Positions 33,960 through 48,298 of a stretch of 50,839 bases of DNA are shown one piece after another. The notes beneath the pieces were generated by a model that saw only the letters and a program-made list of their open reading frames with translations, was not told the DNA's origin and ran no database searches. Positions within the stretch are counted from its first letter, which is position 1, and every line of letters begins with the position of its first letter. Location: IMG/VR virus record IMGVR_UViG_3300044796_000596; one strand, written 5' to 3'. The stretch comes from an uncultured virus (IMG/VR IMGVR_UViG_3300044796_000596) (taxonomy: Duplodnaviria; Heunggongvirae; Uroviricota; Caudoviricetes). A program made the position numbers and the translations under genes.

Positions 33960-35018
33960 ATGGACAGCGTCCTCGAAAAGCTCGACGAGAACGACGGCGC
34001 GACCTGGGGTCGCAATCGGCGGATGCAGGAATTCCGCCTCGACGTCATCGACCAGTACAAGCACATCCACGGAGGGGACATCGTCCAGGGGATCGGCACC
34101 TACTGGGGCACCGTCGAGGTCCAGTGGCTGGCGGAGCCGTTCTCGGCGACGACGCCGGCGCACCTCGGCGCGGGAGCGCCCATCGTGGGCTTCGGCAACG
34201 CGAACTTTGCGGTGAACGTCGTCCCGGGCAGCCCCATCATCGACACGGCCTTCAGCCTCGCCATCGGCGACGTCTCGCCGACGTGGTTCGGAACGCCGCC
34301 CGGCGGGATCGGGCCGACGGGGGCGCCGCACCTCATGAACCCGTCCGACACGAACCTCCAGAACCCGGGGATGAACACCTACGCGGACGAGGTCTTCATC
34401 ATCGAGGCGATCGGCGCGCGGGTGCGAGGCATGCGCGTCGGGTACTCGGCGGCCGCCATCGAGACGATGAAACCGCTGCCCGCGGGCAACACGCTCTCGA
34501 TGCTCCAGGGCAACCAGATGGTCCGGGACCAGTACGGTCTCGTGATCCCCGCGGAGCTTTTCAACCAGTACGACGACACCTTCCGGCTCGCAAAGACGCT
34601 GGAGGAGATCGCGACCCTGCACTTCAAGTGGACGGACGCCGAGCTCGGAGGCTCCACGAACACCGTCGACGTGATGATCGACTCCTTCCTGAACATCACG
34701 AAGGAAGCGAAGGGAATGAAGCGCACGTCGGGCGGCAACCAGAGCGTTCTGGACCTCCCGAACGGCTACATTTGGTGCCTCGACAAGATGTGGCAGGCGA
34801 ACGAGGCCGAGGGCGGCAACGGGATCTTCGACGTGGAGCTTCACCTCGACGAGTCCGTCTCGTACCCCTTCCAGCCGACCTTCGTGTTTGGCTCCCCCGG
34901 CCCCGTCGCTCCCGCAGGAATCGCGCTTTACTGGGAGATTCGTCTCTACGGGACGAGCCTCGTACCGAGCAAGGCCACGCGTGAGCGCAGGCCGCAATCC
35001 GCACGAAGGGGACGGTGA
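33960..35018 (+). CDS. Candidate major capsid-like protein 2, paralog of 22100-23395
   Basis: Collinear blocks shared with 22100-23395: IHGG.I.QG, DTNLQNPG.N.YADEVFIIE, KRTSGGN, LDLP.GYIWCLDK, ALYWE.RL.GTSL. Arg-rich tail. Confidence 0.5.
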   Translation: MDSVLEKLDENDGATWGRNRRMQEFRLDVIDQYKHIHGGDIVQGIGTYWGTVEVQWLAEPFSATTPAHLGAGAPIVGFGNANFAVNVVPGSPIIDTAFSLAIGDVSPTWFGTPPGGIGPTGAPHLMNPSDTNLQNPGMNTYADEVFIIEAIGARVRGMRVGYSAAAIETMKPLPAGNTLSMLQGNQMVRDQYGLVIPAELFNQYDDTFRLAKTLEEIATLHFKWTDAELGGSTNTVDVMIDSFLNITKEAKGMKRTSGGNQSVLDLPNGYIWCLDKMWQANEAEGGNGIFDVELHLDESVSYPFQPTFVFGSPGPVAPAGIALYWEIRLYGTSLVPSKATRERRPQSARRGR

Positions 35019-35738: not shown

Positions 35739-36230
35739 ATGCACACCTCGCCTGGCTATCGCATCGCGCTCGATCATCTTTCGATCGACTGTAACCGGGT
35801 CGCGCCGCACCTCTATCAGGGCAGCGCGCCGCCGCAGGGTCACGCGCTCGCGCGGGCGGGCTTCGACGTCGTGGTGTTCTGCGCGCGCGCGCTCATCCCT
35901 TCGCAGCCCCCGTCCGACTACCCCGGCGTCGAGGCCCTCTACTGCCCGCTCACGGACGTGGGCACGAGAATGGCGCAGGGGGACCCGGATCGGGATTGGG
36001 CCCGCGCGGTCGCGATGGCGTGGGATCTCGCGTCGCGGATCCTCCGTGGCGAGCGGATCCTGGTCACGTGCCACGAGGGCTGGAATCGATCGGGCCTCGT
36101 CTGCGCGTTGATCCTTCACTTCCTGACGGGCGAGTCGGGCCTCGTCTGCGCGAAGCACGTGCACCTCGCGCGCCCTTGGGCTCTCGGTCAACCCGTGTTC
36201 GTGAACGCGCTTTGCGCGCTGGGGGCGTGA
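35739..36230 (+). CDS. Dual-specificity protein phosphatase
   Basis: LYQGSAP, PLTD acid loop, and active-site CX5R (ILVTCHEGWNRSG). Confidence 0.9.
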   Translation: MHTSPGYRIALDHLSIDCNRVAPHLYQGSAPPQGHALARAGFDVVVFCARALIPSQPPSDYPGVEALYCPLTDVGTRMAQGDPDRDWARAVAMAWDLASRILRGERILVTCHEGWNRSGLVCALILHFLTGESGLVCAKHVHLARPWALGQPVFVNALCALGA

Positions 36231-36235: not shown

Positions 36236-36637
36236 ATGGGTCTTTGGAAGGACTTCCTCCACGCGACCGGGATCGAAACGAAGCCTGCGAGAAGGCAGTC
36301 GAAGCCGTCGGGCTTGTCTGCGGCCGTGCGGGAGCGCGAGGAGCGTGACGGCGTTCCGACCGCGCGCAGGGTACCGCGGGAGGAGGACGAGCTCGACGCC
36401 ATCACGGAGCAGATCCGTTTGCCGACACCCAGCCGCCCGTACTACCAGCGGCGTCCGGCCCACTACCAAGGCGAACGCTGGCCCGAGGAGCCCGGCAGAA
36501 GCGCCGACGAGGTACCCGATGAGTGCCACCACTGCAAGAAGCCGATCGCCGGCCAGCCGGTGAGCTTCCACTCGCCGGGCAAGACCTCCACGCACTTCCA
36601 TCCCCACCACGCGAAATACGCGAAGCACGAAGCCTGA
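36236..36637 (+). CDS. Zn-finger/His-tagged protein 1
   Basis: Ends CHHCKKPIAGQPVSFHSPGKTSTHFHPHHAKYAKHEA. Confidence 0.75.
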   Translation: MGLWKDFLHATGIETKPARRQSKPSGLSAAVREREERDGVPTARRVPREEDELDAITEQIRLPTPSRPYYQRRPAHYQGERWPEEPGRSADEVPDECHHCKKPIAGQPVSFHSPGKTSTHFHPHHAKYAKHEA

Positions 36638-36670
36638 CGAAGCCCGAACGGAGCCTGCAAGGAGCCTGCG

Positions 36671-37003
36671 ATGCGCACCGAAGCCAACGACCAGTTGCTT
36701 TACAGCGAGGCGAATCTCTCCCAAGAAGAGGTCGCGGATCTCTCCCCCCGCGCGTACGACGCCATCGTCGCCGATCTCAAGCGCGTGACCGCCCGCCAGG
36801 TCGCAGAGGGAAAGCTCGCAGCGCCGGGCACGCCTTGCCACCACTGCGGAAAGCCGATCCGCGGCGATGCTGTGAGCTTCCACGGGGAGAACCAGCCCCC
36901 GCAGCACTACCACGAGCATCACGCGCAGCACCACAAGCACCACAAGACGACCGCGATATTCAGCAACCGCTCGATCTTCCACAACCGATGGCGCGGGGAG
37001 TGA
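36671..37003 (+). CDS. Tagged protein 2
   Basis: CHHCGKPIRG...HYHEHHAQHH. Confidence 0.75.
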   Translation: MRTEANDQLLYSEANLSQEEVADLSPRAYDAIVADLKRVTARQVAEGKLAAPGTPCHHCGKPIRGDAVSFHGENQPPQHYHEHHAQHHKHHKTTAIFSNRSIFHNRWRGE

Positions 37004-37010
37004 TCGTCAC

Positions 37011-37232
37011 GTGACCACCCCCGACTCCACCCCGAAGCCTGTGCGAGCGCGAGCGTGCGTTCACTGCGGGCTCTCGGACGACCTCCCGTGCCGCGACTTC
37101 CCCCACAGCCCGCGGGCTCACGTGTGGGCACCCGCCGGCGATCGAAACGGCGATCGAAACCTTGCCCGCGAACTCCAGACGTCGAGCCCCCGGCTTCACG
37201 ACCCACAAGAAGCCCTCCGGAGGCTCGGGTGA
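37011..37232 (+). CDS. Small Cys/His protein
   Basis: GTG start; CVHC...C...H...H. Confidence 0.4.
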   Translation: MTTPDSTPKPVRARACVHCGLSDDLPCRDFPHSPRAHVWAPAGDRNGDRNLARELQTSSPRLHDPQEALRRLG

Positions 37233-37330
37233 GCACGACGAAGACGACCCGCAAGATCGAGGCGCTCCACCACGCCCACCACGCGCACCACGCGCACCAC
37301 GCGCACCACGCGAAGCACCACAAGGCGTAG
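37229..37330 (+). CDS. Mini-ORF with only the His tail (HHA repeats)
   Basis: GTG overlaps the previous stop; ends HHAKHHKA. Confidence 0.45.
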   Translation: MSTTKTTRKIEALHHAHHAHHAHHAHHAKHHKA

Positions 37331-37339
37331 GATCGAGCG

Positions 37340-37822
37340 ATGCCGACCGAGAGCCTCCTCGACGACCCGCGCTACCAGGAGCGCCGTCGCCTCGACCGCC
37401 GTCGATCCTCGACGACGGTGCTCGAGGAGCCGAAGCTCTTCCCGCGGGTCTTCCCCGAGCTTGACCAGGCCGATCATGCGCGCCTCGCGGCCCTCTACGC
37501 CGCGCAGGCGACGGTGCTGGACAGCATGGCGCGCGAGGCCGCCGCCGCTGCGAAGGACGTCTACGGCGCGGGCACGTGGCCGGCGCGCGTGCGCCAACAG
37601 ATCGGCCAGATGGACGCCGGCAAGGACGAGCTTCTCCGCGCCGCGCGCGCGCACGAGGCCGCCGCGGGGAAGGTCGACAAGGGCCACCCGAAGCACGCGA
37701 CGCCTGGAACGCCATGCCACCACTGCAAGGAGCCCATCACCGGCCAGGCGGTGAGCTTCCACGCGGACGGAAAGACCTCGAAGCACTACCACGCGCACCA
37801 CGCGAAGCACCACGGAGCCTGA
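37340..37822 (+). CDS. Tagged protein 3
   Basis: Ends CHHCKEPITG...KHYHAHHAKHHGA. Confidence 0.75.
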   Translation: MPTESLLDDPRYQERRRLDRRRSSTTVLEEPKLFPRVFPELDQADHARLAALYAAQATVLDSMAREAAAAAKDVYGAGTWPARVRQQIGQMDAGKDELLRAARAHEAAAGKVDKGHPKHATPGTPCHHCKEPITGQAVSFHADGKTSKHYHAHHAKHHGA

Positions 37823-37829
37823 ACCCATC

Positions 37830-38171
37830 ATGACCAGCGACGCAGAGAAGATCGCTAAGCGCATCGTCGACGACCGCCTGGCGTTCACGGACGGGCGCAT
37901 GTCCCTCAAAGCGCAGGACGATCGGTGGATGGCCGACTACATGGCCGCGCTGCGCCTCGACATCTGGTCGGACGTCGAGCGGATCCTGCGTGAAATGTAC
38001 GGCGCCGATCGGTACGGCCACGTCCCCGGGAGCCGCCCGAAGCACGCGCCGCCTGGAACGCCGTGCCACCACTGCAAGGAGCCCATCGCCGGCCAGCCCA
38101 TCTCGTTCCACGCGGACGGAAAGGCATCGAAGCACTACCACGCGCACCACGCGAAGCACCACGGAGCCTGA
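37830..38171 (+). CDS. Tagged protein 4
   Basis: Ends CHHCKEPIAG...KHYHAHHAKHHGA. Confidence 0.75.
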   Translation: MTSDAEKIAKRIVDDRLAFTDGRMSLKAQDDRWMADYMAALRLDIWSDVERILREMYGADRYGHVPGSRPKHAPPGTPCHHCKEPIAGQPISFHADGKASKHYHAHHAKHHGA

Positions 38172-38173
38172 TC

Positions 38174-39451
38174 ATGGCCGCGAAAAAGACCGCGAGAAAG
38201 AGCACGAGCAGCAAGGGCTTCCACGCCTTCGAGGCCGCTTGGAAGCGCGTCGGCCTCCCCGGCCGTCCCGTGCCGAAGGGCAAGCACGCGGCCGTCACGG
38301 CGTGGGGCTGGCACCTCGTGTATGACCCGATGAGAGCCATGCGCGTGCTCCGTCGCTTCCCGACGGTGAAGCGCGCGAGCGCCAAGGCCCAAGAGAGGAT
38401 CGCCGAGACGCTCGGGGCCGAGCAGGTGGTCGTCGAGGCGCATGAGGTCGGGACAAGGGGAGCCGCGAGGACGTCAAGCGATCCCCCTTCCCATCGTTCC
38501 GCCCGCTACATCACGGACGAGGAGCCGACGCCGTTCACGATGGCGGAGTTCCTCGACGCGAACAAGGGGGAGGGCGCACTCGATCCCGCGGACCTCGCCG
38601 CGATCCGCGCGCTCAAGCCAGGGCAGAGCGTGACGCTCAACTTCGGCGCCGGCGGGCGCTCGACGATCACGAGGGTGAAGCCTCAAGGAGGGCACGCCGA
38701 CCTCGCCCGCTACCAGGTGCTCGTCGCGAAGCCCGGCAAGCTCACGCCCGCCGAGAAGCGGACGCTCGCCCGCCTCGCGCCGAGGTTCAAGGGCCTTGAG
38801 CGGACGGATCGGCCGAAGGTCCACCTCGGCCACAACCTCGCGATCCTCACGAACGAAGAGCTCCTCCAGAAGCTCCAGAAGGAAGCCCGGAAGATCGACG
38901 AGACGACCGGCAAGGAGCGCCGTCGACACCAAAGCCACAGACTCGCCCTACGGCGCGAGATCGCCAGGCGCCCGGGGGGTCCACCCGCGCCCCAGCGCAT
39001 CGAGGAAAAGGGCGCGCGTGACAAGCGTCTCGCGGCCGAGATGGCGCAGCGCTTTCCGACGCACGGCGCGTGGTCGTTCGATTACATGTACCCTGGGCTC
39101 TTCACGTACACCCGCGACAACGCGACGCTCTTCTTCACGCCCGACTACGACGACGACGGCAAGCTCTCGTTGCAGGTGGCGGACGACGAAGGCGCCAGCA
39201 TCGAGGCGTGGGAGCTTCCGGGCTGGCCGACCGAGGCCGAGGAGACCTACCCGGTGCCGCTCACGGCCGACTACATGCACAGCTTCGCGGTCCGGTGCAT
39301 GGACCTGATCGACGCGGCGAAGCCCGGCAAGCCCGGCACGACGTGCCACCACTGCAAGAAGCCCATCGCGGGCATTCCGGTCACGCATCACTCGCCGGGC
39401 AAGCCCTCGAAGCACTACCACCCGGCGCACGCCCACCACCACAAGGCGTGA
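38174..39451 (+). CDS. Tagged protein 5 (mosaic, MAAKKT N-terminus)
   Basis: Ends CHHCKKPIAG...KHYHPAHAHHHKA. Confidence 0.75.
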   Translation: MAAKKTARKSTSSKGFHAFEAAWKRVGLPGRPVPKGKHAAVTAWGWHLVYDPMRAMRVLRRFPTVKRASAKAQERIAETLGAEQVVVEAHEVGTRGAARTSSDPPSHRSARYITDEEPTPFTMAEFLDANKGEGALDPADLAAIRALKPGQSVTLNFGAGGRSTITRVKPQGGHADLARYQVLVAKPGKLTPAEKRTLARLAPRFKGLERTDRPKVHLGHNLAILTNEELLQKLQKEARKIDETTGKERRRHQSHRLALRREIARRPGGPPAPQRIEEKGARDKRLAAEMAQRFPTHGAWSFDYMYPGLFTYTRDNATLFFTPDYDDDGKLSLQVADDEGASIEAWELPGWPTEAEETYPVPLTADYMHSFAVRCMDLIDAAKPGKPGTTCHHCKKPIAGIPVTHHSPGKPSKHYHPAHAHHHKA

Positions 39452-39462
39452 GGAGCACGACC

Positions 39463-40533
39463 ATGGCCGCGAAGAAGACGAAGACGCAGAGGGCGAGGCT
39501 GCAACGTCCCTCCCCCACCGCTCACGCGGGAGACCATCCGGGCGAAACCAAGAGGGGGCACGACGGGAAGCGCTGGCGCTCCGAGCCGGACAAGAACGGC
39601 GTCTTCCACTGGAAGCGGGTGGTAAGGACGTCGAGCACGGCTCTGCTGGACAAGCCTGTGTCGCCCGATCCAGGTGTGATGCGAGCGCGTCTTCGTCAGG
39701 CCGGCATCGTCGATACGGAGCGGTACCTACGCTTCGAGACCAGACCGCAGATCGTCAACGGCAAGTGGCAGACGCGCACGACGCTGGTTGGCCTCATGCA
39801 TGTCGATGAGCTGCGAAACGCAGTCCTTCCGGCGAAGCGCAAGGCCGCAGTCGGCCACCCGAAGCCCGGCAAGCCCGGCGTCCACAAGTGCGCCCACTGC
39901 AAGAAGCTCATCACCGGGCACCCCGTCTCTCATCACTCGGAGGGGAAGCCGAGCAAGCACTACCATCCGCATCACGCCAAGCACCACAAGGCGGGCGGCG
40001 AAAGCCACGAGGATCTCCTCCGGCTCGTCCGGAATCTCGCCACCGAGGCCGGGCGAGGTTGGAGCGACGCCGAGATTCCCGAGGATGAGGCAGACTACAT
40101 GACCCGCAGCGCGCGCGAGCACGCTCTCGACGGAGTCCGGAGTGCTGGGGAGCGCCTGTGGGGCCGGGCGATCGAGGCGATCGGGACGCGTGACTACCCG
40201 ACCGCGCGCGCCATTTTGCATGACATGCGTGTGGTCGAGCCGAACTGGTGGCTCCCGAAGGACGCGAAGGGAAAGGCCGAGAAGGCGTTCCAGGCCGTCC
40301 TTCAGTTCGAGAAGGACCACGGGATCTACGTCGAAGGATCGGGAGAAGAGGCTCGAACCAGGCTCGTGCGCGGCGGCCAGCAGTGGATGCCCTCCCCGAA
40401 CGACTTCGAGCGCCGGACGGGTCACGAGGACGAGGAGTACGGGGAAGAGAGCGACGAGCACGACAAGGAAGCGCGTGGCTACGGCCCGATGGCGGGGCGT
40501 GGCGAGTTCGAGCGCGACGAGGACGAGGGATGA
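39463..40533 (+). CDS. Tagged protein 6 (RPSP...GHDG...NG..HW motif, internal tag, C-terminal helical domain)
   Basis: GAGGAG RBS; internal CAHCKKLITG...KHYHPHHAKHH. Confidence 0.8.
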   Translation: MAAKKTKTQRARLQRPSPTAHAGDHPGETKRGHDGKRWRSEPDKNGVFHWKRVVRTSSTALLDKPVSPDPGVMRARLRQAGIVDTERYLRFETRPQIVNGKWQTRTTLVGLMHVDELRNAVLPAKRKAAVGHPKPGKPGVHKCAHCKKLITGHPVSHHSEGKPSKHYHPHHAKHHKAGGESHEDLLRLVRNLATEAGRGWSDAEIPEDEADYMTRSAREHALDGVRSAGERLWGRAIEAIGTRDYPTARAILHDMRVVEPNWWLPKDAKGKAEKAFQAVLQFEKDHGIYVEGSGEEARTRLVRGGQQWMPSPNDFERRTGHEDEEYGEESDEHDKEARGYGPMAGRGEFERDEDEG

Positions 40534-40625
40534 CGAAGACGAAGACCCAGATGGCGAGGCTCCAGCGTCCCTCGAAGCACTACCACCCGGCGCACGCCCA
40601 CCACCACGACGCCCACAAGGCGTGA
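40530..40625 (+). CDS. Mini-ORF joining the basic leader directly to the His tail (deletion derivative)
   Basis: MTKTKTQMARLQRPSKHYHPAHAHHHDAHKA; ATGA overlap. Confidence 0.45.
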   Translation: MTKTKTQMARLQRPSKHYHPAHAHHHDAHKA

Positions 40626-40636
40626 GGAGCACGATC

Positions 40637-41206
40637 ATGGCCGCGAAGAAGACGAAGAAGACGACGCAGACGAAGACGCAAAGGGCGAGGGTGCAGCGCC
40701 CCTCCCCGACCGCGCACGCCGCCGATCACAAGGGCGAGGTCAAGCGCGGCCACGACGGGAAGCGCTGGCGCTCGGAGCCAGACACGAACGGCGTCTACCA
40801 CTGGAAGCACGTGAACGCGCGCGCCGAGCTCGTGAGCGCGCGGGATGCCCACCGCAAGGCATCCGGGAAGCGCCCGCTGGCCCCGAACTCATTCCAGCCG
40901 ATTTGGGCCAACAAGGCACTGAGTGTGGGATCCCTCCAGGGCAACCTCCGTGTCATGACACGCGGGGAGAGGCAGGCCGAGGCTGCGGGCGACAGCAAGG
41001 CCGCGAACGAGTATCGCCAGAATGCGAGCACCATTCGCGCCGCGCTTGCGGCAAAAAGGGGTCGCGCGGCGGGCGAACCCGGCACGACGTGCCACCACTG
41101 CAAGAAGTCCATCGCGGGCATCCCGGTCTCGCATCACTCGCCGGGCAAGCCCTCGAAGCACTACCACCCGGCGCACGCCCACCACCACGACGCCCACGAG
41201 GCGTGA
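40637..41206 (+). CDS. Tagged protein 7 (RPSP motif)
   Basis: GAGGAG RBS; C-terminal tag. Confidence 0.8.
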   Translation: MAAKKTKKTTQTKTQRARVQRPSPTAHAADHKGEVKRGHDGKRWRSEPDTNGVYHWKHVNARAELVSARDAHRKASGKRPLAPNSFQPIWANKALSVGSLQGNLRVMTRGERQAEAAGDSKAANEYRQNASTIRAALAAKRGRAAGEPGTTCHHCKKSIAGIPVSHHSPGKPSKHYHPAHAHHHDAHEA

Positions 41207-41217
41207 GGAGCACGATC

Positions 41218-42333
41218 ATGGCCGCGAAGAAGACGCAGACGCAGACGCAGACGCAGAGGGCGAGGGACGCCGAGCGCCGAACGACGGCAGCTCGTCGTGA
41301 GCTCCGCACCGATCCGACTCTGATCTCCTACCAGGAGAAGGCCGAGAAAAAGGGCGGACGCGTCGTCGTCAATCTCTTCAGGATGGCGTACGAGGGGCAG
41401 CGTGATCGTGGCTGGAAGCCGCAGAAAGCCTTCGAGAACGCAGTCGCCTCGCTGATCGGGAGCGTGGAGCCAGATCGCCTCCCGCGCTGGGAGTTCGTCG
41501 GAGGCCCGGAGGCCGGCCAATCCGCGAAGAAGCCCGCCAAGAAGACGAATGCGCGGAAGGTGAGGCTCCAGCGCCCCTCCCCGACCGCACACGCCGCCGA
41601 TCACAAGGGCGAGGTCAAGCGCGGCCACGACGGCAAGCGCTGGCGCTCGGAGCCAGACACGAACGGCGTCTACCACTGGAAGCACGTGAAGCGCGCGGCG
41701 ACGAAGAAGCGCGCGGCGACGAAGAAGCCCGCGGCGACGAAGCCCGCGACGACGAAGAAGCCCGCGGCGACGAAGCCCGCGAAGCGCAAGGTGAAGCCCG
41801 GCAAGCGCAAGGCGGCTGCGAAGACGAAGACGAAGACGAAGGGCGCTCTCTCGAGCGGCATGCGCGCGCTCGTTCATGCGCACGCTGGCATGCATCCCGG
41901 GTCCGAGGTCCCCATCAAGGTTGTCAACGGGGACGTCGCTCCCTACTACTGGACCTCGCTGGCGGGGCCCGGCCAGCATGAGCAAAAGGCCGTGATCGTC
42001 GGGCGCGCGTGGCTCTCGGCCGCGAAGCCTGGCAATGAGACGCTGGGCGTGCTGTCCCCTCGGATCAAGCGCTGGAAGGCGTGGGCGGCGGGGATGAAGA
42101 AGCGAGCCACGAAGGCTGGCAAGTCGCTGGCGGCTGCGGATCTGACCTACGAGGCGTGGCAGGTCTGGAACGCCGAAGAGAGTGAGCGCAGGAGCGGTCG
42201 CGCGGCGGGCGAACCCGGCACGACGTGCCACCACTGCAAGAAGCCCATCACCGGGCATCCGGTCTCGCATCACTCGCCGGGCAAGCCCTCGAAGCACTAC
42301 CACCCGGCGCACGCCCACCACCACGAGGCGTGA
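41218..42333 (+). CDS. Tagged protein 8 (RPSP motif, AATKK histone-H1-like repeats)
   Basis: GAGGAG RBS; C-terminal tag. Confidence 0.8.
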   Translation: MAAKKTQTQTQTQRARDAERRTTAARRELRTDPTLISYQEKAEKKGGRVVVNLFRMAYEGQRDRGWKPQKAFENAVASLIGSVEPDRLPRWEFVGGPEAGQSAKKPAKKTNARKVRLQRPSPTAHAADHKGEVKRGHDGKRWRSEPDTNGVYHWKHVKRAATKKRAATKKPAATKPATTKKPAATKPAKRKVKPGKRKAAAKTKTKTKGALSSGMRALVHAHAGMHPGSEVPIKVVNGDVAPYYWTSLAGPGQHEQKAVIVGRAWLSAAKPGNETLGVLSPRIKRWKAWAAGMKKRATKAGKSLAAADLTYEAWQVWNAEESERRSGRAAGEPGTTCHHCKKPITGHPVSHHSPGKPSKHYHPAHAHHHEA

Positions 42334-42585
42334 GGATGAGTTTCCTCGAATCTCAAGCGGAGCGGGCGAGACCCCGCGCTCGCGGAGCGAAAGACCTCGG
42401 CGACCGCTTCATCGCCGAGATGCGCCGCACCGTACGCGCCGCGATCCTCGACAATGCCGAGCCCCAGGCGGACGGCAGCGTTCGTATCGAGTGGCGCGGC
42501 AGTGACCGTCAGCCGCGCAACAGCGCCAACGTCGCCTTCCTTCGCCAGGTACCGTTCAGCGCGGAGTACGGCCAAAGTTACGTTG
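42225..42585 (+). repeat. 361-bp direct repeat, copy 1 (copy 2 at 43193-43553)
   Basis: Identical by eye; starts at the tag's CHHC codons and runs into the next gene. Confidence 0.9.
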
Positions 42586-42605
42586 GGAGAAAGAAAAGAC
42601 GATGA
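42336..42605 (+). CDS. Hypothetical protein identical to the N-terminus of 43304-44212
   Basis: Lies within the 361-bp repeat. Confidence 0.6.
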   Translation: MSFLESQAERARPRARGAKDLGDRFIAEMRRTVRAAILDNAEPQADGSVRIEWRGSDRQPRNSANVAFLRQVPFSAEYGQSYVGRKKRR

Positions 42606-42802
42606 ACGCCTCCAACGCCTCCAACCTGCTGAACTTCCTGGCCTGCCTGACCATCATCGCGACGGCCGTCCCCTCCGCCGCTGGCGAGCCCGCCTCGGCC
42701 GAGGACATCGCCGACGCTCACGACATGGCGGCGTTCTGGTGGAGCGGCAGCGTGGGCAGCCAGACCCACCTGCCCGACGGCCGCTCGCTCACCCACCTCT
42801 GA
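42602..42802 (+). CDS. Small hypothetical protein
   Basis: ATGA overlap; followed by a GC hairpin at ~42811-42838. Confidence 0.55.
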   Translation: MNASNASNLLNFLACLTIIATAVPSAAGEPASAEDIADAHDMAAFWWSGSVGSQTHLPDGRSLTHL

Positions 42803-42872
42803 CCCGCGGTCGGGCGCCTCTCTCCGGGAGGGGCGCCCCGCCGTGCGCCAGAGCACGAGAAGCGAGACCACC

Positions 42873-43301
42873 ATGAGCAAGATCAAGATCCTTCTGTCCG
42901 CCGCGAACATGGGCCCGAACGCCACGGAGGCCGATTTCGACGCGTGGGCGTCCTACGTCGCCGCGAACATCGACGAGGCGCTGAGCATCGACGCCGACGT
43001 GGATCAGGCCGGGTTCACCGGGCGCACGTCGATCTCCGACGACGAGGTGAGCGGGGCGACCGAGGAGCAGGAGGAGGCCATCGACCGCTGGCTCGGGAAC
43101 GAGGGTTGGGATGCGTGGTGCTCCTCGGTCGCCCCCCGCGTCCGCGGCACGGCTCGCATCGACCTCGCCGCCGGCAAGCCGCAGAACCCGCTGTGCCACC
43201 ACTGCAAGAAGCCCATCACCGGGCATCCGGTCTCGCATCACTCGCCGGGCAAGCCCTCGAAGCACTACCACCCGGCGCACGCCCACCACCACGAGGCGTG
43301 A
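42873..43301 (+). CDS. Tagged protein 9 (acidic N-domain)
   Basis: C-terminal tag. Confidence 0.75.
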   Translation: MSKIKILLSAANMGPNATEADFDAWASYVAANIDEALSIDADVDQAGFTGRTSISDDEVSGATEEQEEAIDRWLGNEGWDAWCSSVAPRVRGTARIDLAAGKPQNPLCHHCKKPITGHPVSHHSPGKPSKHYHPAHAHHHEA

Positions 43302-43553
43302 GGATGAGTTTCCTCGAATCTCAAGCGGAGCGGGCGAGACCCCGCGCTCGCGGAGCGAAAGACCTCGGCGACCGCTTCATCGCCGAGATGCGCCGCACCG
43401 TACGCGCCGCGATCCTCGACAATGCCGAGCCCCAGGCGGACGGCAGCGTTCGTATCGAGTGGCGCGGCAGTGACCGTCAGCCGCGCAACAGCGCCAACGT
43501 CGCCTTCCTTCGCCAGGTACCGTTCAGCGCGGAGTACGGCCAAAGTTACGTTG
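43193..43553 (+). repeat. 361-bp direct repeat, copy 2
   Basis: Matches 42225-42585. Confidence 0.9.
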
Positions 43554-44212
43554 CCCGCACGCGCCCGAACTTCCAACACGGTAGCGAAGTCGCCCGCTTC
43601 GTCGTGCGGGCTCCGCGCGTCCGCGGCACGGCTCGCATCGACCTCGCCGCCGGCAAGCCGCAGAACCCGCTGTGCCACCACTGCAAGAAGCCCATCACCG
43701 GGCATCCGGTGAGCTTTCAGACGGAGGGTGTCCCCTCGGCGCACTACCACAAGCAGCACGCGAAGCACCATCACTCGAAGAAGCCGATCGACAACCGCGC
43801 GCTCGTGGAGACGGTGGAGGACCTCAGCAAGAAGGCGAAGTGGAGCTGGTCCGACGTCGAGATCCCCTACCACCAGCGCGTGGAGATGAGCAGGGGGGCC
43901 AGAGATCGGGCCGTCCAAGCGGCGGGGCGCACGGCAGAGCGGCTATGGGACCAGGCCATCGAGTTCGTCAAGGCTGGCGACTACGCGGCGGCTCGCGCCA
44001 TTCTCCATGACCTCAGCGTCATCGAGGACAACTGGGATCTGGATGACCGCGCGAAGGGGAAGGCATGGGACGCGTTCAACACGGTCCTGCGGTTCGAGAA
44101 GGCCCACGGCCTCACAGCCTCGGGCGAGGAGGCTCGCGCCCGTCTCCTGCGCGCAGGCCAGGCGTGGATGCCTTCCCCCCACGACTTCGAGTCGTCCGCG
44201 GACGAGGAGTAG
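43304..44212 (+). CDS. Tagged protein 10 (internal tag; C-terminal domain paralogous to that of 39463-40533)
   Basis: WSD.EIP...ERLW..AIE...ARAILHD...WMPSP.DFE shared with 39463-40533. Confidence 0.8.
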   Translation: MSFLESQAERARPRARGAKDLGDRFIAEMRRTVRAAILDNAEPQADGSVRIEWRGSDRQPRNSANVAFLRQVPFSAEYGQSYVARTRPNFQHGSEVARFVVRAPRVRGTARIDLAAGKPQNPLCHHCKKPITGHPVSFQTEGVPSAHYHKQHAKHHHSKKPIDNRALVETVEDLSKKAKWSWSDVEIPYHQRVEMSRGARDRAVQAAGRTAERLWDQAIEFVKAGDYAAARAILHDLSVIEDNWDLDDRAKGKAWDAFNTVLRFEKAHGLTASGEEARARLLRAGQAWMPSPHDFESSADEE

Positions 44213-44222
44213 AGGAGGAACC

Positions 44223-45230
44223 ATGACGACCCTCGCCCAAATGAAGCGCAACGCCGCGAAGACGTGGTACGTCATCGCGAGCGAGGACGACGTCGAACGT
44301 CTCGCGCCGTTCACCGCCGCGGGCGAGGGGCACGAGGTCCGCTTCGTCAGTGCCCTCGGCGCAGTCATCTGCGAGAACTGCGGCTCCGAACTCGACACGG
44401 GTCGAAAGAACGGCGAGGACGATCGAGAGCTCGCCGCGCGCCTGGGGACGAAGCGCCCGACGCTGGTCGAGCACGGCGGCGTCTTCGTGAAATGCGTCTC
44501 GTGCGGCCGCGAGTACGACGTCACCGAGGACGGACCGATCACGGACCAGGATCTCAGCGAGCTCGGGACGAGGGGCTTGCTGCCGAAGAAACTCCAGGCG
44601 GAGTGGACGAGCGCCGTCGAGCGCAGGAAGAAGACCATGAAGGCGAAGCCGAAGAAGACCACGCGCACCGCGGCGCAGATCGCGGCCTCGCTCACGGGCA
44701 ACGCGCAGGCGCTCAAGGAAGGCCACCTCTCCCTCGAGCAGATGCGCGATCTCGCCGCCGCCGACTGGGCGGCCGCCGATCGCTCCGAGCGTCTGAACGC
44801 CGAGGTCCACCGGATCCTCCGCGAGGACTACCACGCGAACGCCATGGGTGAGCCGCTCGCGCCCGCGGGCTCCCTCGAGCACGCCGCGCTCCACGCGACG
44901 GGCGCCGGCGCCGCGACGATCAAGGGCCGCGACGGTAAGACCTACCCCGCCGTGATCCGCATCGAGCCCTACGCCGGCATGTGGCGCGTGCAGGGCCACC
45001 CGGAACTCCCGACGTTCTCGTTCAGGGACGGCCCCGAGGCGTGGGCCTCCTACTGGGCGCCTGGCGCGGAGGTCGTGTTCGTGGAGCGCGAGAACGCGCA
45101 GGCGGCGGCGAGGGCGCCCGAGTGCGAGCACTGCGCGCTGCCGATCAAGGGCGAACCCGTGACCTTCCGCTCCGAGGGCAAGACGCCGGTTCACTACCAT
45201 CCGCACCACGCGCACCACCATCGCGTCTGA
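44223..45230 (+). CDS. Tagged protein 11 (Zn-ribbon CENC/CVSC, mosaic)
   Basis: GAGGAGG RBS; ends CEHCALPIKG...HYHPHHAHHHRV. Confidence 0.75.
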   Translation: MTTLAQMKRNAAKTWYVIASEDDVERLAPFTAAGEGHEVRFVSALGAVICENCGSELDTGRKNGEDDRELAARLGTKRPTLVEHGGVFVKCVSCGREYDVTEDGPITDQDLSELGTRGLLPKKLQAEWTSAVERRKKTMKAKPKKTTRTAAQIAASLTGNAQALKEGHLSLEQMRDLAAADWAAADRSERLNAEVHRILREDYHANAMGEPLAPAGSLEHAALHATGAGAATIKGRDGKTYPAVIRIEPYAGMWRVQGHPELPTFSFRDGPEAWASYWAPGAEVVFVERENAQAAARAPECEHCALPIKGEPVTFRSEGKTPVHYHPHHAHHHRV

Positions 45231-45399
45231 TCGCTCCAGACGATCCAGACGATCCTTGGGATCGTTCTACGGACGTTCTACGGACGTTTCAGCGCGTTCT
45301 ATGGATGCGAGCCGTGCGACCGGCGCGACGAGACGCGCGACGATTTCTCACTTCTATGTAAAATCATGTAGGATCTCGGGACAGATTCAGAAACGCGTC

Positions 45400-45954
45400 A
45401 TGTCGAAGTGGAGCCGAGCCTACAAGAACCGCCTTTCCGATCAGGCGTTTCTCTACATCGAACCGGGCGGCCGCAAGGACGCGACGGGTCGCACGGTGCC
45501 GCGTAGCCTCCGCCATCTGCCCGTCTACGACCTCCAGGGCCGGCTCTCCGCGAGCCACCTCCGCAGCGTGCTCGGGAGCTACGGACAGCGCGCCGAGATC
45601 CCCGCGCGCGCCAAGGCCGAGGCGAGGGGCATCGCGCGCGAGCTGCTCGCTGGCATCGCTGGCATCGCCGGCATCGCCGGCATCGCCGGCGCTCGCCGCT
45701 CGGGACGCGGATCGGGACAAGGCTCGCCTCGGCGACGTCAAGCGATCCCCACCCCCGCCGCTCGCGTGATCTCGATCACGCGGATCCCGAAGATCACGCC
45801 CGGCGCGCACGTCTGCCACCACTGCAAGCGGGCGATCAAGGGCCACCCGATCACGTTCTCGGGCGAGGAGCACGCGCCCCGGCACTACCATCCGGCGCAC
45901 GCGAAGCATCACGTAGCGCCGCTCTCCGTGCGCCCTCGCCGTATGGCCGCCTGA
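45400..45954 (+). CDS. Tagged protein 12 with a phage head-associated-type N-domain
   Basis: WS.AY.N.L.D.AFLYIEPGG.KD..G.T.PRSLRH.P motif, recalled from phage head-morphogenesis proteins; near-terminal tag. Confidence 0.7.
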   Translation: MSKWSRAYKNRLSDQAFLYIEPGGRKDATGRTVPRSLRHLPVYDLQGRLSASHLRSVLGSYGQRAEIPARAKAEARGIARELLAGIAGIAGIAGIAGARRSGRGSGQGSPRRRQAIPTPAARVISITRIPKITPGAHVCHHCKRAIKGHPITFSGEEHAPRHYHPAHAKHHVAPLSVRPRRMAA

Positions 45955-45968
45955 GAGGAGGAGGACCG

Positions 45969-46586
45969 ATGCCCCGAACGAAGATCAAGACGCGCTGGTG
46001 GGTCGGCAGGACCTCGGCCAAGCACCACGTGGCGTTCGCTCTCGGCGAGGCGCCCTCGAGCGCGACCCACAAGGGTCGGTACACGCACTCGTGGGGCCCG
46101 TTTCACACGAAGGGCGGCGCGGAGGAGTGGGCGCGCGTCGCGAACGAGAGCGGCGAGGTGCTCACGATCACCGAGGCCGAGCGACGCGCCAAGCTCCCGA
46201 AGGGCAAGGGCAACCCCAAGGCGCTCAAGGGCGAGATCACGACGATCTGGATCGTGGACGAGCCGAGCTCCGAAGCCTTGCTTCGCGACATCGTGTCGGA
46301 GGTCCCGCTCGCGAAGCTCGACCTCCAGATCCTCGGCGCCCCCACCTGGTGGAACAGCGGCAAGCTCCGGTTCTACCTCGACAAGGCGAGCGCCATGAAG
46401 GACGCGAAGGCGCGCCTCGCGAGGGTCCAGAGGGTCCAGAAGGGCCAGGGGAACATCCCCGCGGGTGCCCCGACGTGCGCGCACTGCGAGGAGCCGATCC
46501 ACAACCAGCGCCCCGTCACCTTCCGGGTAGAGGGCGGCACCGAGCGGCACTACCACCCGGCCCACGCGAAGCACCACAAGGGCTGA
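45969..46586 (+). CDS. Tagged protein 13
   Basis: GGAGGAGG RBS; ends CAHCEEPI...HYHPAHAKHHKG. Confidence 0.8.
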   Translation: MPRTKIKTRWWVGRTSAKHHVAFALGEAPSSATHKGRYTHSWGPFHTKGGAEEWARVANESGEVLTITEAERRAKLPKGKGNPKALKGEITTIWIVDEPSSEALLRDIVSEVPLAKLDLQILGAPTWWNSGKLRFYLDKASAMKDAKARLARVQRVQKGQGNIPAGAPTCAHCEEPIHNQRPVTFRVEGGTERHYHPAHAKHHKG

Positions 46587-46690
46587 CCCAGGGCTGACGA
46601 CAAGAACCACTGCAAATGCACAAGGGCGAAGTGCCCACCAACACGCCAGCCGAGGCGATCAACGTCATCGGCGGAGAGAGAGAACGACCG

Positions 46691-47524
46691 ATGGCTGCCA
46701 AGAAGACCGCGAAGAAGACGACCAAGAAGTCCGCCAAGAAGAAGCCCCGCTCGGCGGCTCAGAAGGCGTGGGCGAAGAAGCTCGGCCAGATGAGCAAGGC
46801 GCGCGCCGGCAAGAAGAAGCCCGCGAAGAAGCGCGCAGCGGCGAAGAAGCATGCAGCGGCGAAGAAGCCCGCGAAGCGCTCGGCGGCTCAGAAGGCGTGG
46901 GCGACGAAGCTCGGCGAGATGAGCAAGGCGCGCGCGGGCAAGACCGCGAAGCACACGCCGAAGCACACGGCGAAGAAGACGCCGAAGCACACGGCGAAGA
47001 AGACGGCGCGGAAGGCCGCGAAGAAGACGGCCGCGAAGCACACGCCGGAGAAGACGGCTGCCGCCAAGCGCTACGTCGTGATGGCCGAGGCACACTTCAA
47101 GAAGCTCGAGAAGTCGAGCGGCCTGAAGGTGTACATCGCCGCGCGCCAAATCGTGGATGGCCAAGCACAGGTGACGGTGAGCGAGGCCGACTACGAGCGC
47201 ATGGCACGCAAGCCGGCGAAGCCGGCGAAGGCTGCGAAGAAGACGGCGAAGAAGACGGCGAAGACGGCGAAGAAGCCGGCGAAGAAGGCCACGAAGGCGA
47301 AGGCGACCTCAGGTCTCCGCTTCGGGGACACGCACAGCTCGCATCACCCGGGCGCGCTGCCCTTCGGGCACTCGCACAAGGACCACCACCGCGCGGGCAA
47401 GCCGGGGGACACCTGCCACCACTGCAAGCAGACGATCAAGGGCGTCCCCGTGAGCCATCACGACAAGGGCAAGCCCTCGAAGCACTACCACACGCACCAC
47501 GCCAAGCACCACGAGGCGGCGTAG
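46691..47524 (+). CDS. Tagged protein 14: histone H1-like Lys/Ala-rich DNA-binding protein
   Basis: AKKTAKK repeats, RSAAQKAWA.KLG.MSKARAGK twice, C-terminal tag. Confidence 0.8.
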   Translation: MAAKKTAKKTTKKSAKKKPRSAAQKAWAKKLGQMSKARAGKKKPAKKRAAAKKHAAAKKPAKRSAAQKAWATKLGEMSKARAGKTAKHTPKHTAKKTPKHTAKKTARKAAKKTAAKHTPEKTAAAKRYVVMAEAHFKKLEKSSGLKVYIAARQIVDGQAQVTVSEADYERMARKPAKPAKAAKKTAKKTAKTAKKPAKKATKAKATSGLRFGDTHSSHHPGALPFGHSHKDHHRAGKPGDTCHHCKQTIKGVPVSHHDKGKPSKHYHTHHAKHHEAA

Positions 47525-48270: not shown

Positions 48271-48298
48271 GTTATACGTGCGTAAAGCTGCATGTCAA
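48271..48298 (-). promoter_or_regulatory. Sigma70-type promoter of the AbrB-Doc operon (leaderless)
   Basis: TTGACA (48298-48293), 16-nt spacer, TATAAC (48276-48271), 6 nt before the ATG. Confidence 0.6.

What the first reader, a model, noticed from the sequence alone, without database searches (positions are those of the whole stretch)
36236..47524. 11-kb array of unrelated proteins sharing a half-LIM-like Zn-finger/poly-His tag: candidate cargo-addressing system
Seen: 14 co-oriented genes carry C-x-H-C-x-x-x-I-x-(G/N)-x(~13)-H-(Y/F)-H-x-x-H-A-x-(H/Y), at or near the C-terminus in 12 and internally in 2. Two mini-ORFs keep only the His tail. The fused parts differ: H1-like basic repeats, acidic domains, a Zn ribbon, a phage-head-type domain. 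Known: the spacing matches the first knuckle of a LIM domain (CxxCxKPI...GKxWHxxC), with His in place of the last Cys. Inference: the tag is a common docking or packaging signal that loads diverse proteins into the particle or nucleoprotein core encoded upstream. I know of no described system like this.
Basis: partly seen in the sequence, partly recalled or inferred. Interest (0 to 1): 0.93.

Follow-up and report, generated by a model that had tools for sequence, protein, structure and literature searches.

The report
Shared zinc-finger module on fourteen neighbouring genes
Fourteen neighbouring genes of a little-known mobile element from a soil myxobacterium each carry the same rare, unnamed zinc-finger-like module fused to otherwise unrelated proteins; it probably ties them all to one common partner, but that partner is not yet known.

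Summary
Exactly 14 copies of CxHCxxxI...H(Y/F)HxxHA lie in co-oriented, tightly packed, strongly coding genes at 36.2-47.5 kb, and none lies elsewhere in the six frames. The module is a ~35-residue CCHH treble-clef zinc-finger candidate. Across 36 tags, C9 and C12 are invariant and H34 and H37 are replaced only by Cys. The AlphaFold model shows knuckle, hairpin and helix. A profile match ties it to an FCS/TRASH-type finger (96% probability), and its ligand spacing equals that of LIM finger 1. It reaches no Pfam, PHROG, NCBIfam or PADLOC threshold. It is very rare: 38 hits among 1.84 billion representatives, 24 of them outside the window. With tags masked, 10 of 14 partner regions show no mutual similarity, so it is a shuffled mobile domain. 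It sits in the gene block of a jelly-roll, capsid-like protein of a Polyangiales element, and that link recurs on two other contigs. Outside the window the module is N-terminal or internal as often as C-terminal, and three genomes with the capsid-like module lack it. A shared binding module, most likely for nucleic acid, fits best. The packaging-tag reading remains possible but untested.

The parts
36236..36637 (+). tagged gene 1 (133 aa); tag motif 36524-36613, C-terminal
   Evidence: GC3 0.85
36671..37003 (+). tagged gene 2 (110 aa); tag 36836-36925, followed by a 25-residue tail
37229..37330 (+). mini-ORF keeping only an HHA-repeat/KHHKA tail; start codon uncertain (frame open from 37004)
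37340..37822 (+). tagged gene 3 (160 aa); tag 37715-37804
37830..38171 (+). tagged gene 4 (113 aa); tag 38064-38153
38174..39451 (+). tagged gene 5 (425 aa, net charge +20); tag 39344-39433
39463..40533 (+). tagged gene 6 (356 aa): N-terminal 'module A' (RPSPTAHA..GHDGKRW..NGV.HWK), internal tag 39889-39978, acidic C-terminal domain shared with gene 10
40530..40625 (+). mini-ORF (31 aa): start of module A joined directly to the tag tail; reads as a deletion remnant
40637..41206 (+). tagged gene 7 (189 aa): module A + tag 41090-41179
41218..42333 (+). tagged gene 8 (371 aa, net +49): internal module A, AKKP-type basic repeats, tag 42226-42315
42336..42605 (+). untagged 89-aa truncated duplicate of the N-terminus of gene 10; lies in a 300-nt perfect repeat (42225-42524 = 43193-43492)
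42873..43301 (+). tagged gene 9 (142 aa, acidic, net -8); tag 43194-43283
43304..44212 (+). tagged gene 10 (302 aa); internal tag 43673-43762; C-terminal domain 52% identical to that of gene 6
44223..45230 (+). tagged gene 11 (335 aa); N-terminal CxxC..CxxC with sub-threshold Zn-ribbon hits; tag 45123-45212
45400..45954 (+). tagged gene 12 (184 aa); N-terminal 87 aa homologous to part of a post-portal protein of phage THSA-485A; tag 45814-45903, 16-residue tail
45969..46586 (+). tagged gene 13 (205 aa); tag 46476-46568 (one-residue insertion); best Pfam score of all tags (DUF7576 26.0 bits, cut-off 27)
46691..47524 (+). tagged gene 14 (277 aa from ATG 46691, or 302 aa from 46616; net +65, H1-like KKxA repeats); tag 47414-47503
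33960..35018 (+). short jelly-roll, capsid-like protein (352 aa) in the same + strand block, 1.2 kb upstream of the array; 49% identical paralogue of 22100-23395
35739..36230 (+). gene immediately upstream of the array; carries a CX5R(S) phosphatase-type signature (read by eye; no Pfam support)

Best explanation
The array is an operon-like block of 14 genes, plus three remnants, in a poorly known, possibly virus-like mobile element of a Polyangiales (Myxococcota) bacterium. Each gene has acquired one copy of a rare, unnamed ~35-residue module.

Shown or strongly indicated: the module is an independently folding CCHH treble-clef zinc-finger candidate. It consists of a CxxC knuckle, a beta-hairpin and a short helix supplying H-x2-H, followed by a His-rich tail. 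It is derived from, or convergent with, FCS/TRASH-type fingers and has the ligand spacing of LIM finger 1. It is a mobile domain, not the conserved core of one paralogue family. It spreads by duplication and recombination across a conserved junction made of the tag end, TGA, AGGAG and the ATG of the next gene.

Inferred: because one module is kept on otherwise unrelated proteins that are mostly basic, often repeat-rich or without recognisable domains, and co-expressed, it gives them all the same binding specificity.

My preferred ligand (speculative) is nucleic acid, namely the DNA of the element or of the host. The set would then act as DNA-associated core, nucleoid or takeover proteins, and binding to the element's DNA would also carry them into any particle. 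A protein hub is the main alternative ligand.
For: Ligand pattern: in 36 tags (13 window, 23 outside), C9 and C12 are 36/36. H34 is 35 His + 1 Cys and H37 is 35 His + 1 Cys. I16 is 36/36 and Y33 is 35/36.

Fold: the AlphaFold2 model has pLDDT 79.8, with strands 21-23 and 31-33 and a helix at 35-38. The listed Foldseek matches are dominated by zinc fingers and none is significant: PARP-1 fingers, PINCH LIM1, Rlp24/L24e. The VIA-align matches are mostly zinc-binding domains too: C1 domains, PARP-1 fingers, ZZ domains and L24e-type ribosomal proteins, beside the copper chaperone NosL (Z 4.5-3.1).

Homology: hhalign of the tag profile against P0039 gives 96.4% probability, E 1.1e-9, over 28 columns. 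P0039 scores 23.1 bits for zf-FLZ (cut-off 23.4) and has a sub-threshold TRASH hit.

Mobile domain: with tags masked, 10 of 14 partner regions have no similarity to one another. Outside the window the tag is N-terminal, internal or C-terminal.

Junction conservation: (D10: 117 nt, 91% identical, spanning tag end to next gene start).

Coding and selection: GC3 is 0.74-1.0. Tag DNA identity is 64-100% with the invariant residues kept. Median dN/dS is 0.51 over 77 pairs.

Basic character: 10 of 14 tagged proteins have pI >= 8.6 and six have net charge >= +13. The tag carries net 0 to +5 and 7-11 His in 34 residues.

Against: No zinc or nucleic-acid binding was measured, and the model coordinates could not be inspected for ligand geometry. 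All fold matches are weak (Z < 5; Foldseek E > 0.5) because the domain is tiny. Related finger classes (LIM, MYM/FCS, ZZ, C1) are often protein- or lipid-binding rather than DNA-binding (recalled). Four tagged proteins are neutral or acidic. The dN/dS of 0.51 is only moderate constraint. The RNA evidence is index-level only and could reflect DNA carry-over. No Pfam or other curated model reaches threshold, so family assignment rests on one hhalign match plus pattern logic.
Confidence: 0.45

Rival explanations
1. The module is an addressing or docking domain that binds a structural protein (the jelly-roll shell protein or a membrane protein) and so loads diverse cargo proteins into a particle made by the upstream genes.
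For: The array lies in the same + strand block as the short jelly-roll paralogue 33960-35018. L001 has two adjacent tagged genes next to a homologue of window genes 29519/35025. The jelly-roll protein resembles the vertical single-jelly-roll capsid proteins of SPV1, HCIV-1 and P23-77 (Z 7.5-5.5) and has a conserved Arg-rich C-terminal tail. The partner domain of gene 12 is homologous to part of a post-portal protein of a tailed phage.
Against: The module is not terminal in the wider family. It is a folded, metal-binding-type domain, not a short peptide of the kind used by known cargo-loading systems (recalled). Three Polyangiales genomes with the conserved jelly-roll module have no tag (0 of 3; the genomes may be incomplete), nor do loci L002-L007. 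No relative of the tag or of the jelly-roll protein is in 2.9 million IMG/VR contigs or 50,697 phage records, so the existence of a particle is itself unproven.
Confidence: 0.18
2. The module is a protein-protein adaptor of LIM or MYM type. It directs a fast-evolving repertoire of accessory effectors (host take-over or anti-defence proteins) to one host hub protein, unrelated to packaging.
For: The array sits at the end of the + strand block, next to a Doc/Fic-antitoxin pair and a methylase fragment, which is an accessory-region position. Turnover is high: outside the window the tag and module A are the only parts shared with window proteins. There are recent duplicates and remnants. The nearest ligand pattern is LIM finger 1.
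Against: No partner domain matches any known defence or anti-defence family (PADLOC: 1 spurious 16-bit hit in 16 proteins). Most partners are highly basic repeats, which suit nucleic-acid binding better than specific effector activity.
Confidence: 0.17
3. The module is chiefly a metal-handling unit, for buffering, sensing or delivery of Zn, Ni, Cu or Co. This would follow proposals for TRASH/YHS domains and His-rich tails.
For: There are 7-11 His in 34 residues, with H11, H32, H40 and H41 conserved beyond the four core ligands (29, 33, 26 and 24 of 36). There is similarity to FCS/TRASH-type fingers. The copper chaperone NosL is among the fold matches (Z 4.0).
Against: Fourteen copies fused to unrelated, mostly basic proteins in one operon of a mobile element is not the architecture of metal homeostasis. 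No transporter or metal regulator is nearby. The H-to-C swaps occur only at two positions, as expected of a structural site.
Confidence: 0.08
4. The array is one ordinary lineage-specific paralogue family whose conserved C-terminal core merely looks like a tag, as in the zinc-ribbon expansions of very large phages.
For: Tandem, co-oriented, translationally tight arrays of small zinc-binding proteins are known from huge phages (earlier scan notes). A few pairs share short pre-tag stretches.
Against: With the tag masked, 10 of 14 partner regions show no similarity to one another. Partner lengths range from 51 to 386 residues. Two genes carry a further domain after the tag. Outside the window the tag changes position within the protein.
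Confidence: 0.07

Closest known systems
FCS / TRASH-type treble-clef zinc fingers (Pfam zf-FCS PF06467, zf-FLZ PF04570, Arc_trans_TRASH PF08394, DUF7576 PF24461)
   Same: The CxxC knuckle, the conserved 'KKPI-G-P' turn, the hairpin and the spacing to the second ligand pair all match. hhalign gives 96.4% probability over 28 columns to P0039, an FCS/TRASH-like protein. Sub-threshold Pfam hits are DUF7576 at 26.0 bits against a cut-off of 27, and zf-FCS at 14 bits. L24e/Rlp24 are among the fold matches.
   Different: The second ligand pair is H-x2-H instead of C-x3-C (TRASH pattern recalled). A His-rich helix follows. No curated threshold is reached. The family is confined to a handful of environmental contigs. 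It occurs as 14 tandem fusions.
LIM domain, first zinc finger (Pfam PF00412)
   Same: The ligand spacing C-x2-C-x21-H-x2-(H/C) falls in the LIM finger-1 range (recalled), with an aromatic residue before the His. The best PDB sequence matches are LIM proteins PDLIM5 (E 0.17) and PINCH (E 2.3). P0024's tag matches LIM model positions 1-27 (E 0.016). The tag profile picks up a true multi-LIM protein, P0025.
   Different: There is only one finger and no second one. The last ligand is His. All scores are non-significant. hhalign to the multi-LIM protein gives only 14.8%. The context is bacterial or mobile-element.
Lineage-specific tandem expansions of small zinc-ribbon proteins in very large phages (earlier scan notes e1-5388576, e1-5557269, e1-6060514; they cite Iyer et al. 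2021, which I did not read)
   Same: These are tandem, co-oriented, tightly spaced arrays of many small zinc-binding proteins of unknown function in a mobile element, where a shared C-terminal piece was first read as a docking tag.
   Different: In those arrays the whole protein is one family and the 'tag' is part of its fold. Here the partner regions are mutually unrelated and the finger is a separable domain.
Terminal cargo-targeting signals (encapsulin cargo-loading peptides, phage T4 capsid-targeting sequence; recalled, not tested)
   Same: One short shared element sits on diverse proteins encoded beside shell-like genes.
   Different: Those signals are short, unstructured, strictly terminal peptides. 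This is a folded, metal-binding-type domain that can be N-terminal, internal or C-terminal. No HK97-fold or encapsulin shell gene was found in the window.

Membership tests
LIM domain (PF00412) | Two consecutive zinc fingers (eight ligands) in about 55 residues | tested here: not met
   Only one CxxC...HxxH unit per tag; the residues after it are a His-rich tail and the stop codon.
LIM domain (PF00412) | Score at or above Pfam's gathering cut-off (22.9 bits) | tested here: not met
   No LIM hit for any of the 14 window tags at E <= 10. The best hit in the family is P0024 at 15.9 bits.
LIM domain (PF00412) | Finger-1 spacing C-x2-C-x16-23-H-x2-C (recalled) | tested here: inconclusive
   The spacing C-x2-C-x21-H-x2-H fits. 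The last ligand is His in 35 of 36 tags and Cys in 1 of 36.
FCS/TRASH-type zinc finger (zf-FCS, TRASH, DUF7576) | Curated Pfam score cut-off | tested here: not met
   DUF7576 best 26.0 bits against 27. zf-FCS 14.1 and 14.5 bits against 22.4. Six of 14 tags have no hit at all.
FCS/TRASH-type zinc finger (zf-FCS, TRASH, DUF7576) | C-x2-C ... C-x3-C four-cysteine ligand set (recalled) | tested here: not met
   The second pair is H-x2-H. The hhalign alignment to P0039 stops just before it.
FCS/TRASH-type zinc finger (zf-FCS, TRASH, DUF7576) | Profile-level homology of knuckle and hairpin | tested here: met
   hhalign gives probability 96.4%, E 1.1e-9, 28 columns, 54% identity to P0039. P0039 is itself only borderline for zf-FLZ (23.1 against 23.4 bits).
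Treble-clef zinc-finger fold | Zinc knuckle, beta-hairpin, then a helix whose N-terminus gives the last two ligands | tested here: met
   The AlphaFold2 model has pLDDT 79.8, strands 21-23 and 31-33, and a helix at 35-38 covering H37, with H34 just before it. The matches are C1, PARP-1, ZZ and L24e fingers at Z 4.5-3.1. Ligand geometry could not be inspected, and metal binding is not testable with these tools.
Terminal cargo-loading or targeting peptide systems | Signal strictly at one terminus of every cargo | tested here: not met
   Two of 14 window copies are internal. In 24 outside proteins about 6 are N-terminal, about 8 internal and about 10 C-terminal.
Terminal cargo-loading or targeting peptide systems | Direct binding of the signal to the shell protein | not testable with these tools
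   This needs biochemistry or particle proteomics; see Tried and rejected for the one modelling attempt.
Two-capsid-protein, membrane-containing tailless viruses (Sphaerolipoviridae-like; context only) | Two paralogous vertical single-jelly-roll major capsid proteins | tested here: inconclusive
   Two 49%-identical paralogues exist. The model has pLDDT 77.6. The best matches are SPV1 (Z 7.5), HCIV-1 (6.0), and P23-77 VP17 (5.8) and VP16 (5.5). But Z < 8 is middling, and nucleoplasmins score alike.
Two-capsid-protein, membrane-containing tailless viruses (Sphaerolipoviridae-like; context only) | FtsK/HerA-type packaging ATPase next to the capsid genes (recalled) | tested here: inconclusive
   No such Pfam or PHROG hit in the window. 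One P-loop protein (4462-6357, - strand) of unclear type is present. Only 51 kb of a 175-kb contig was seen.
Lineage-specific zinc-ribbon paralogue expansion | Whole proteins are homologous to each other | tested here: not met
   With tags masked, only 4 similarity groups remain among 17 parts; 10 tagged proteins have unique partner regions.

The most novel reading that the evidence does not exclude
The CCHH finger is a modular addressing domain of an undescribed group of jelly-roll-capsid, membrane-containing virus-like elements of Polyangiales myxobacteria. Any protein that acquires it, through the recombination-prone tag-end/RBS/start junction, is carried into the particle's DNA-protein core. 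The array would then be an evolvable cargo repertoire delivered into the next cell.
Probability: 0.15. Interest if true: 0.85.

Novelty: new variant of a known kind. Interest (0 to 1): 0.6.

Why it matters
If the module is what it appears to be, it is an unnamed branch of the treble-clef (FCS/TRASH/LIM-like) zinc fingers in which His replaces the second Cys pair. It has been caught in the act of domain shuffling: fourteen unrelated proteins in one operon carry it, joined by a junction that looks built for cassette exchange. That gives a compact natural system for asking how a small binding domain is spread within a mobile element.

It also gives a defined handle of 35 residues and four candidate ligand residues for finding the common partner. 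If that partner is the element's DNA or shell, it would be a new way of recruiting accessory proteins. The surrounding element, in a phylum with few known viruses, may be worth study in its own right. It has two jelly-roll capsid-like paralogues, giant tail-anchored cell-wall-binding proteins, and several copies per Polyangiales genome. It has no relative in phage or IMG/VR collections.

Tried and rejected
1. Whole-genome context: no genome is held for the window.

2. Tag searches that found nothing:
- IMG/VR (75 pattern matches, 0 confirmed).
- One genome per species (39 pattern matches, 0 confirmed).
- tblastn of tagged proteins against phage records and plasmids.
- JGI metagenomes gave a single locus, L001.

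3. The jelly-roll protein was not found in phage records or IMG/VR.

4. Curated libraries for the tagged proteins:
- Pfam: 1 sub-threshold hit in 15 proteins.
- PHROGs: 0 of 14.
- NCBIfam: 0 of 24 proteins.
- PADLOC: one 16-bit hit in 16 proteins, taken as chance.
- Partner modules alone: nothing except Zn-ribbon-like hits in 44223.

5. ESM Atlas search with gene 6 gave no usable feature hit, and all structural rows had TM < 0.5.

6. Complex prediction of the tag (A2) with the short jelly-roll protein (A4) returned 'no answer' (score 0.00 against a mark of 0.32; the partner's fold was uncertain).

Transcription of the array therefore rests only on the index share of run X2. Run X3's 0.05 share is not used.

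8. The promoter and terminator scan showed no excess over shuffles. There are no Rfam families or tRNAs in the window.

9. A trimmed tag-only alignment including the outside proteins could not be made. Profile work used the full-length alignment A2 instead, which gave a diluted 197-position profile in the PDB sequence search.

10. An assembly artefact as the source of the array is rejected. Tag copies differ at 16-36% of DNA positions. Only the 300-nt perfect repeat could be an assembly effect.

11. Earlier scan notes for this place and sequence: none.

Full report
**1. The observation**

A six-frame scan for C.HC...I..{8,20}H[YF]H..HA gives 14 matches. All are on the + strand, all lie between 36524 and 47503, and there are none elsewhere in the window. 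In 200 mononucleotide shuffles of the window the full motif never appeared.

Gene models were set from in-frame starts and upstream AGGAG-like sites. They give 14 tagged genes, two mini-ORFs that keep only the His tail (37229?-37330 and 40530-40625) and one untagged truncated duplicate (42336-42605). All 17 have GC3 of 0.74-1.0 in the called frame, against about 0.5-0.7 in the other frames. Most neighbours are 2-14 nt apart.

Ten tags end 5-8 residues before the stop. Two have short tails of 16 and 25 residues. Two are internal, with 149 and 184 residues following.

**2. What the tag is**

The 14 copies align with invariant C9, H11, C12, I16, H32, H34, H37 and A38.

An exhaustive profile search of 1.84 billion representative proteins found only 38 hits at E <= 0.001:
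- 9 are the window's own proteins.
- 24 are other members of the family.
- 1 (P0039) is a canonical four-cysteine FCS/TRASH-like protein.
- 4 are multi-stretch matches to other proteins. One of them, P0025, is a true multi-LIM protein.

I built a 36-tag alignment from 13 window tags and 23 outside tags. Left out were the window copy identical to another, P0030 (which has lost its tail), P0040 (same cluster as P0015) and the five non-family hits. In this alignment:
- C9, C12 and I16 are 36/36.
- H34 is 35 His + 1 Cys, and H37 is 35 His + 1 Cys.
- Y33 is 35/36 and H32 is 33/36.
- H11, H40 and H41 are 29, 26 and 24 of 36.

His-to-Cys exchange at exactly two positions is what metal ligands do. The core site is therefore most likely C9, C12, H34 and H37.

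AlphaFold2 on this alignment gives a confident small fold (pLDDT 79.8) with strands 21-23 and 31-33 and a helix at 35-38. This is the knuckle-hairpin-helix order of a treble-clef finger.

The listed fold matches are dominated by zinc fingers but are weak, as expected for 43 residues:
- Foldseek: PARP-1 fingers, PINCH LIM1 and Rlp24/L24e, all with E > 0.5.
- VIA-align: C1 domains (Z 4.5), and NosL and PARP-1 (Z 4.0), down through ZZ domains and L24e-type ribosomal proteins to about Z 3.1.

**3. Family placement**

No curated model reaches threshold. For window tags the best scores are DUF7576 at 26.0 bits (cut-off 27) and zf-FCS at 14 bits (cut-off 22.4). Six of the 14 tags hit nothing.

The PDB sequence search puts LIM proteins first, but without significance (PDLIM5 E 0.17, PINCH E 2.3). 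One outside tag matches LIM model positions 1-27 at E 0.016.

Profile comparison is clearer. The tag profile aligns to the FCS/TRASH-like P0039 with 96.4% probability (E 1.1e-9, 28 columns). The alignment ends just before the second ligand pair. Against the multi-LIM protein the probability is 14.8%.

I therefore read the tag as a derived FCS/TRASH-type finger in which C-x3-C became H-x2-H. That change makes its ligand pattern coincide with LIM finger 1. The LIM and TRASH consensus patterns are from memory.

**4. A shuffled domain, not a paralogue core**

With the tag masked and composition correction on, only four similarities remain among the partner regions:
- 'Module A' is shared by genes 6, 7 and 8.
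- A post-tag domain is shared by genes 6 and 10 (52% identity).
- The duplicate 42336 matches 43304.
- A 17-residue identical pre-tag linker is shared by 42873 and 43304.

The partner regions of ten tagged proteins match nothing else in the array. Partner lengths run from 51 to 386 residues.

Outside the window the tag is N-terminal in about 6 proteins, internal in about 8 and C-terminal in about 10 of 24. The tag and module A are the only parts that outside proteins share with window proteins.

Module A is itself a second rare mobile module. It was found in 8 proteins, with or without a tag.

At DNA level the tag copies are 64-100% identical, with median dN/dS of 0.51 over 77 pairs. The stretch from the tag tail through TGA and AGGAG into the next gene's start is conserved as a unit (117 nt at 91% identity). 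There is also a 300-nt perfect repeat. Mini-ORF 40530-40625 reads as module A's start joined to the tag tail. These features point to duplication and recombination between cassettes as the way the array grew.

**5. Context**

The window is part of a 174,839-bp contig: P0041 is 100% identical to a window protein.

Genes run on the + strand from about 6.7 kb to 47.5 kb, with an interruption at 30.8-33.0 kb. The block contains:
- a 4,296-aa protein with LysM, SH3 and CarboxypepD_reg domains;
- a 1,431-aa protein with GDSL and SpoIID domains;
- a small membrane protein;
- four proteins with one shared N-terminal motif.

The two large proteins both end in a hydrophobic C-terminal anchor.

There are also two 49%-identical paralogues, 22100-23395 and 33960-35018. 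Their model (pLDDT 77.6) is a jelly roll. Its best matches are the capsid proteins of SPV1 (Z 7.5, 157 residues aligned), HCIV-1 (Z 6.0), and P23-77 VP17 (Z 5.8) and VP16 (Z 5.5). Z stays under 8, and nucleoplasmin cores score similarly. Foldseek gave only poor-TM capsid hits.

The family has 26 clusters, all environmental. In named genomes it occurs only in Polyangiales MAGs: two Byssovorax sp. assemblies and one 'delta proteobacterium'. There are 2-3 copies per MAG, always in the order giant protein, 21408-like, jelly roll, 23515-like, 24172-like.

None of this is in IMG/VR or in phage records. I call the element 'possibly virus-like'; a particle is not shown.

**6. Linkage of tag and element**

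Evidence for linkage:
- The array follows the short jelly-roll paralogue in one gene block.
- By matching contig lengths, a 42,009-bp contig holds two tagged proteins and both jelly-roll paralogues, and a 4,409-bp contig holds one of each.
- L001 has two adjacent tagged genes followed by a relative of window genes 29519/35025.
- A 1,593-bp contig holds two tagged proteins.

Evidence against an obligatory link:
- Loci L002-L007 carry no tag.
- Three whole MAGs of 9.4-11.2 Mb give 0 of 3 matches. The tool warns that this shows little in incomplete genomes.

The tag is thus an accessory feature of some members of the element family.

**7. Function**

The shown facts are these. One conserved, probably zinc-binding module sits on unrelated proteins. 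The genes are tightly packed and co-oriented. Ten of 14 proteins have pI >= 8.6, and six have net charge >= +13, including two H1-like repeat proteins at +49 and +65. The module itself is basic and His-rich.

I infer that the module supplies one common binding specificity. My preferred ligand is nucleic acid. This rests on the basic partners and on the nucleic-acid-binding habits of PARP, FCS and L24e fingers (recalled). Binding to the element's DNA would also explain co-packaging without a dedicated shell receptor.

An ordinary-paralogue reading is largely excluded.

One partner domain, the N-terminal 87 residues of gene 12, is 51% identical (E 2e-17) to an internal part of a 661-aa protein encoded directly after the portal gene of a tailed phage. 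This mildly favours a virion-associated role for at least that protein.

A metatranscriptome run holds 0.77 of the sampled words of the array.

**8. Comparison and novelty**

The module is a new, unnamed variant of a known kind of fold. The array resembles the tandem zinc-ribbon expansions noted in huge phages (earlier scan notes). It differs from them in being a true domain-shuffling series.

My literature searches were limited. One listing on TRASH and LIM zinc fingers showed, in the abstract of PMC4047054, that zf-FCS fingers occur in animals, prokaryotes and viruses. One listing on jelly-roll proviruses and Myxococcota showed nothing relevant. I read no paper in full, and these two searches are not enough to claim that the family is absent from print.

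**9. Verdict**

- The zinc-finger reading is well supported by pattern, model and profile evidence, but it is not measured.
- The cargo-addressing function is possible but untested, and the module's variable position weakens it.
- Interest is moderate to high, partly because of the surrounding element.

Noticed in passing
window 22100-23395 and 33960-35018; L002-L007: Two 49%-identical jelly-roll proteins with conserved Arg-rich C-terminal tails. The best structural matches are the capsid proteins of SPV1, HCIV-1 and P23-77 (Z 7.5-5.5). The family (26 clusters) is found only in environmental contigs and Polyangiales MAGs, at 2-3 copies per MAG, in a fixed five-gene order. It is absent from IMG/VR and phage records. 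This may be an undescribed virus-like element of myxobacteria.
   Followed up: partly
window 28524-29477, 29519-30025, 30120-30791, 33102-33560; L001 1060-1509: Five proteins share a ~35-residue N-terminal motif (MS.P..P.Q.KN...G.....LY.YL..LV) followed by unrelated, partly Gly-rich C-terminal parts. This looks like a second 'common anchor, variable head' family, perhaps fibres or spikes.
   Followed up: partly
window 6686-19576 and 24172-28467: A 4,296-aa protein (LysM, SH3_3, CarboxypepD_reg) and a 1,431-aa protein (GDSL lipase, SpoIID, phrog_32486) both end in a hydrophobic C-terminal anchor with nothing after it. Homologues in Polyangiales MAGs end the same way.
   Followed up: partly
window 35739-36230: The gene directly upstream of the array carries a CX5R(S)-type phosphatase signature (..VTCHEGWNRSG..). 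No Pfam, NCBIfam or PADLOC model matched it; the signature was read by eye.
   Followed up: no
window 39463-39642, 40637-40834, 41536-41709; P0013, P0018, P0031, P0067-P0069: 'Module A' (RPSPTAHA..H.GE.K.GHDGKRW.SEPD.NGV.HWK) is a second rare mobile module, found in 8 proteins, with or without the zinc-finger tag. It has no Pfam match. From memory it recalls the basic adaptor domain of chlorella viruses; this was not tested.
   Followed up: partly
window 42225-42524 and 43193-43492: A 300-nt perfect direct repeat covers a tag end, the junction and the start of the next gene. The first copy continues into a truncated, untagged 89-aa ORF. This is either a very recent duplication or an assembly effect.
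   Followed up: partly
window 45400-45660; L008 5001-5255: The N-terminal domain of tagged gene 12 is 51% identical to an internal segment of a 661-aa hypothetical protein encoded right after the portal gene of Thermoanaerobacterium phage THSA-485A. That is a wide taxonomic jump for such a short domain.
   Followed up: partly
window 47639-48264 (-), 48272-48751 (-), 31233-31622 (-): A Doc/Fic toxin with an AbrB/MazE-type antitoxin, and a C-terminal fragment of an N6/N4 DNA methylase, bound the array downstream. A small minus-strand ORF with an antitoxin-like look (read by eye) interrupts the + strand block at 31.2-31.6 kb.
   Followed up: no
window 4462-6357 (-): A 631-aa protein with an N-terminal Cys cluster, Ala/Pro/Asn-rich linkers and a P-loop (GPAGHGKS) RecA/DnaB-like core. 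It is the only ATPase candidate seen in the window, and its type is unresolved.
   Followed up: no
window 19577-21323: About 1.7 kb between the giant gene and the next gene has no ORF with coding-type GC3 on either strand, and no Rfam match.
   Followed up: no
window 37340-47300: One metatranscriptome run (X2, labelled peat metagenome) holds 0.77 of the sampled words of the array, and a DNA run (X1) holds 0.96.
   Followed up: partly
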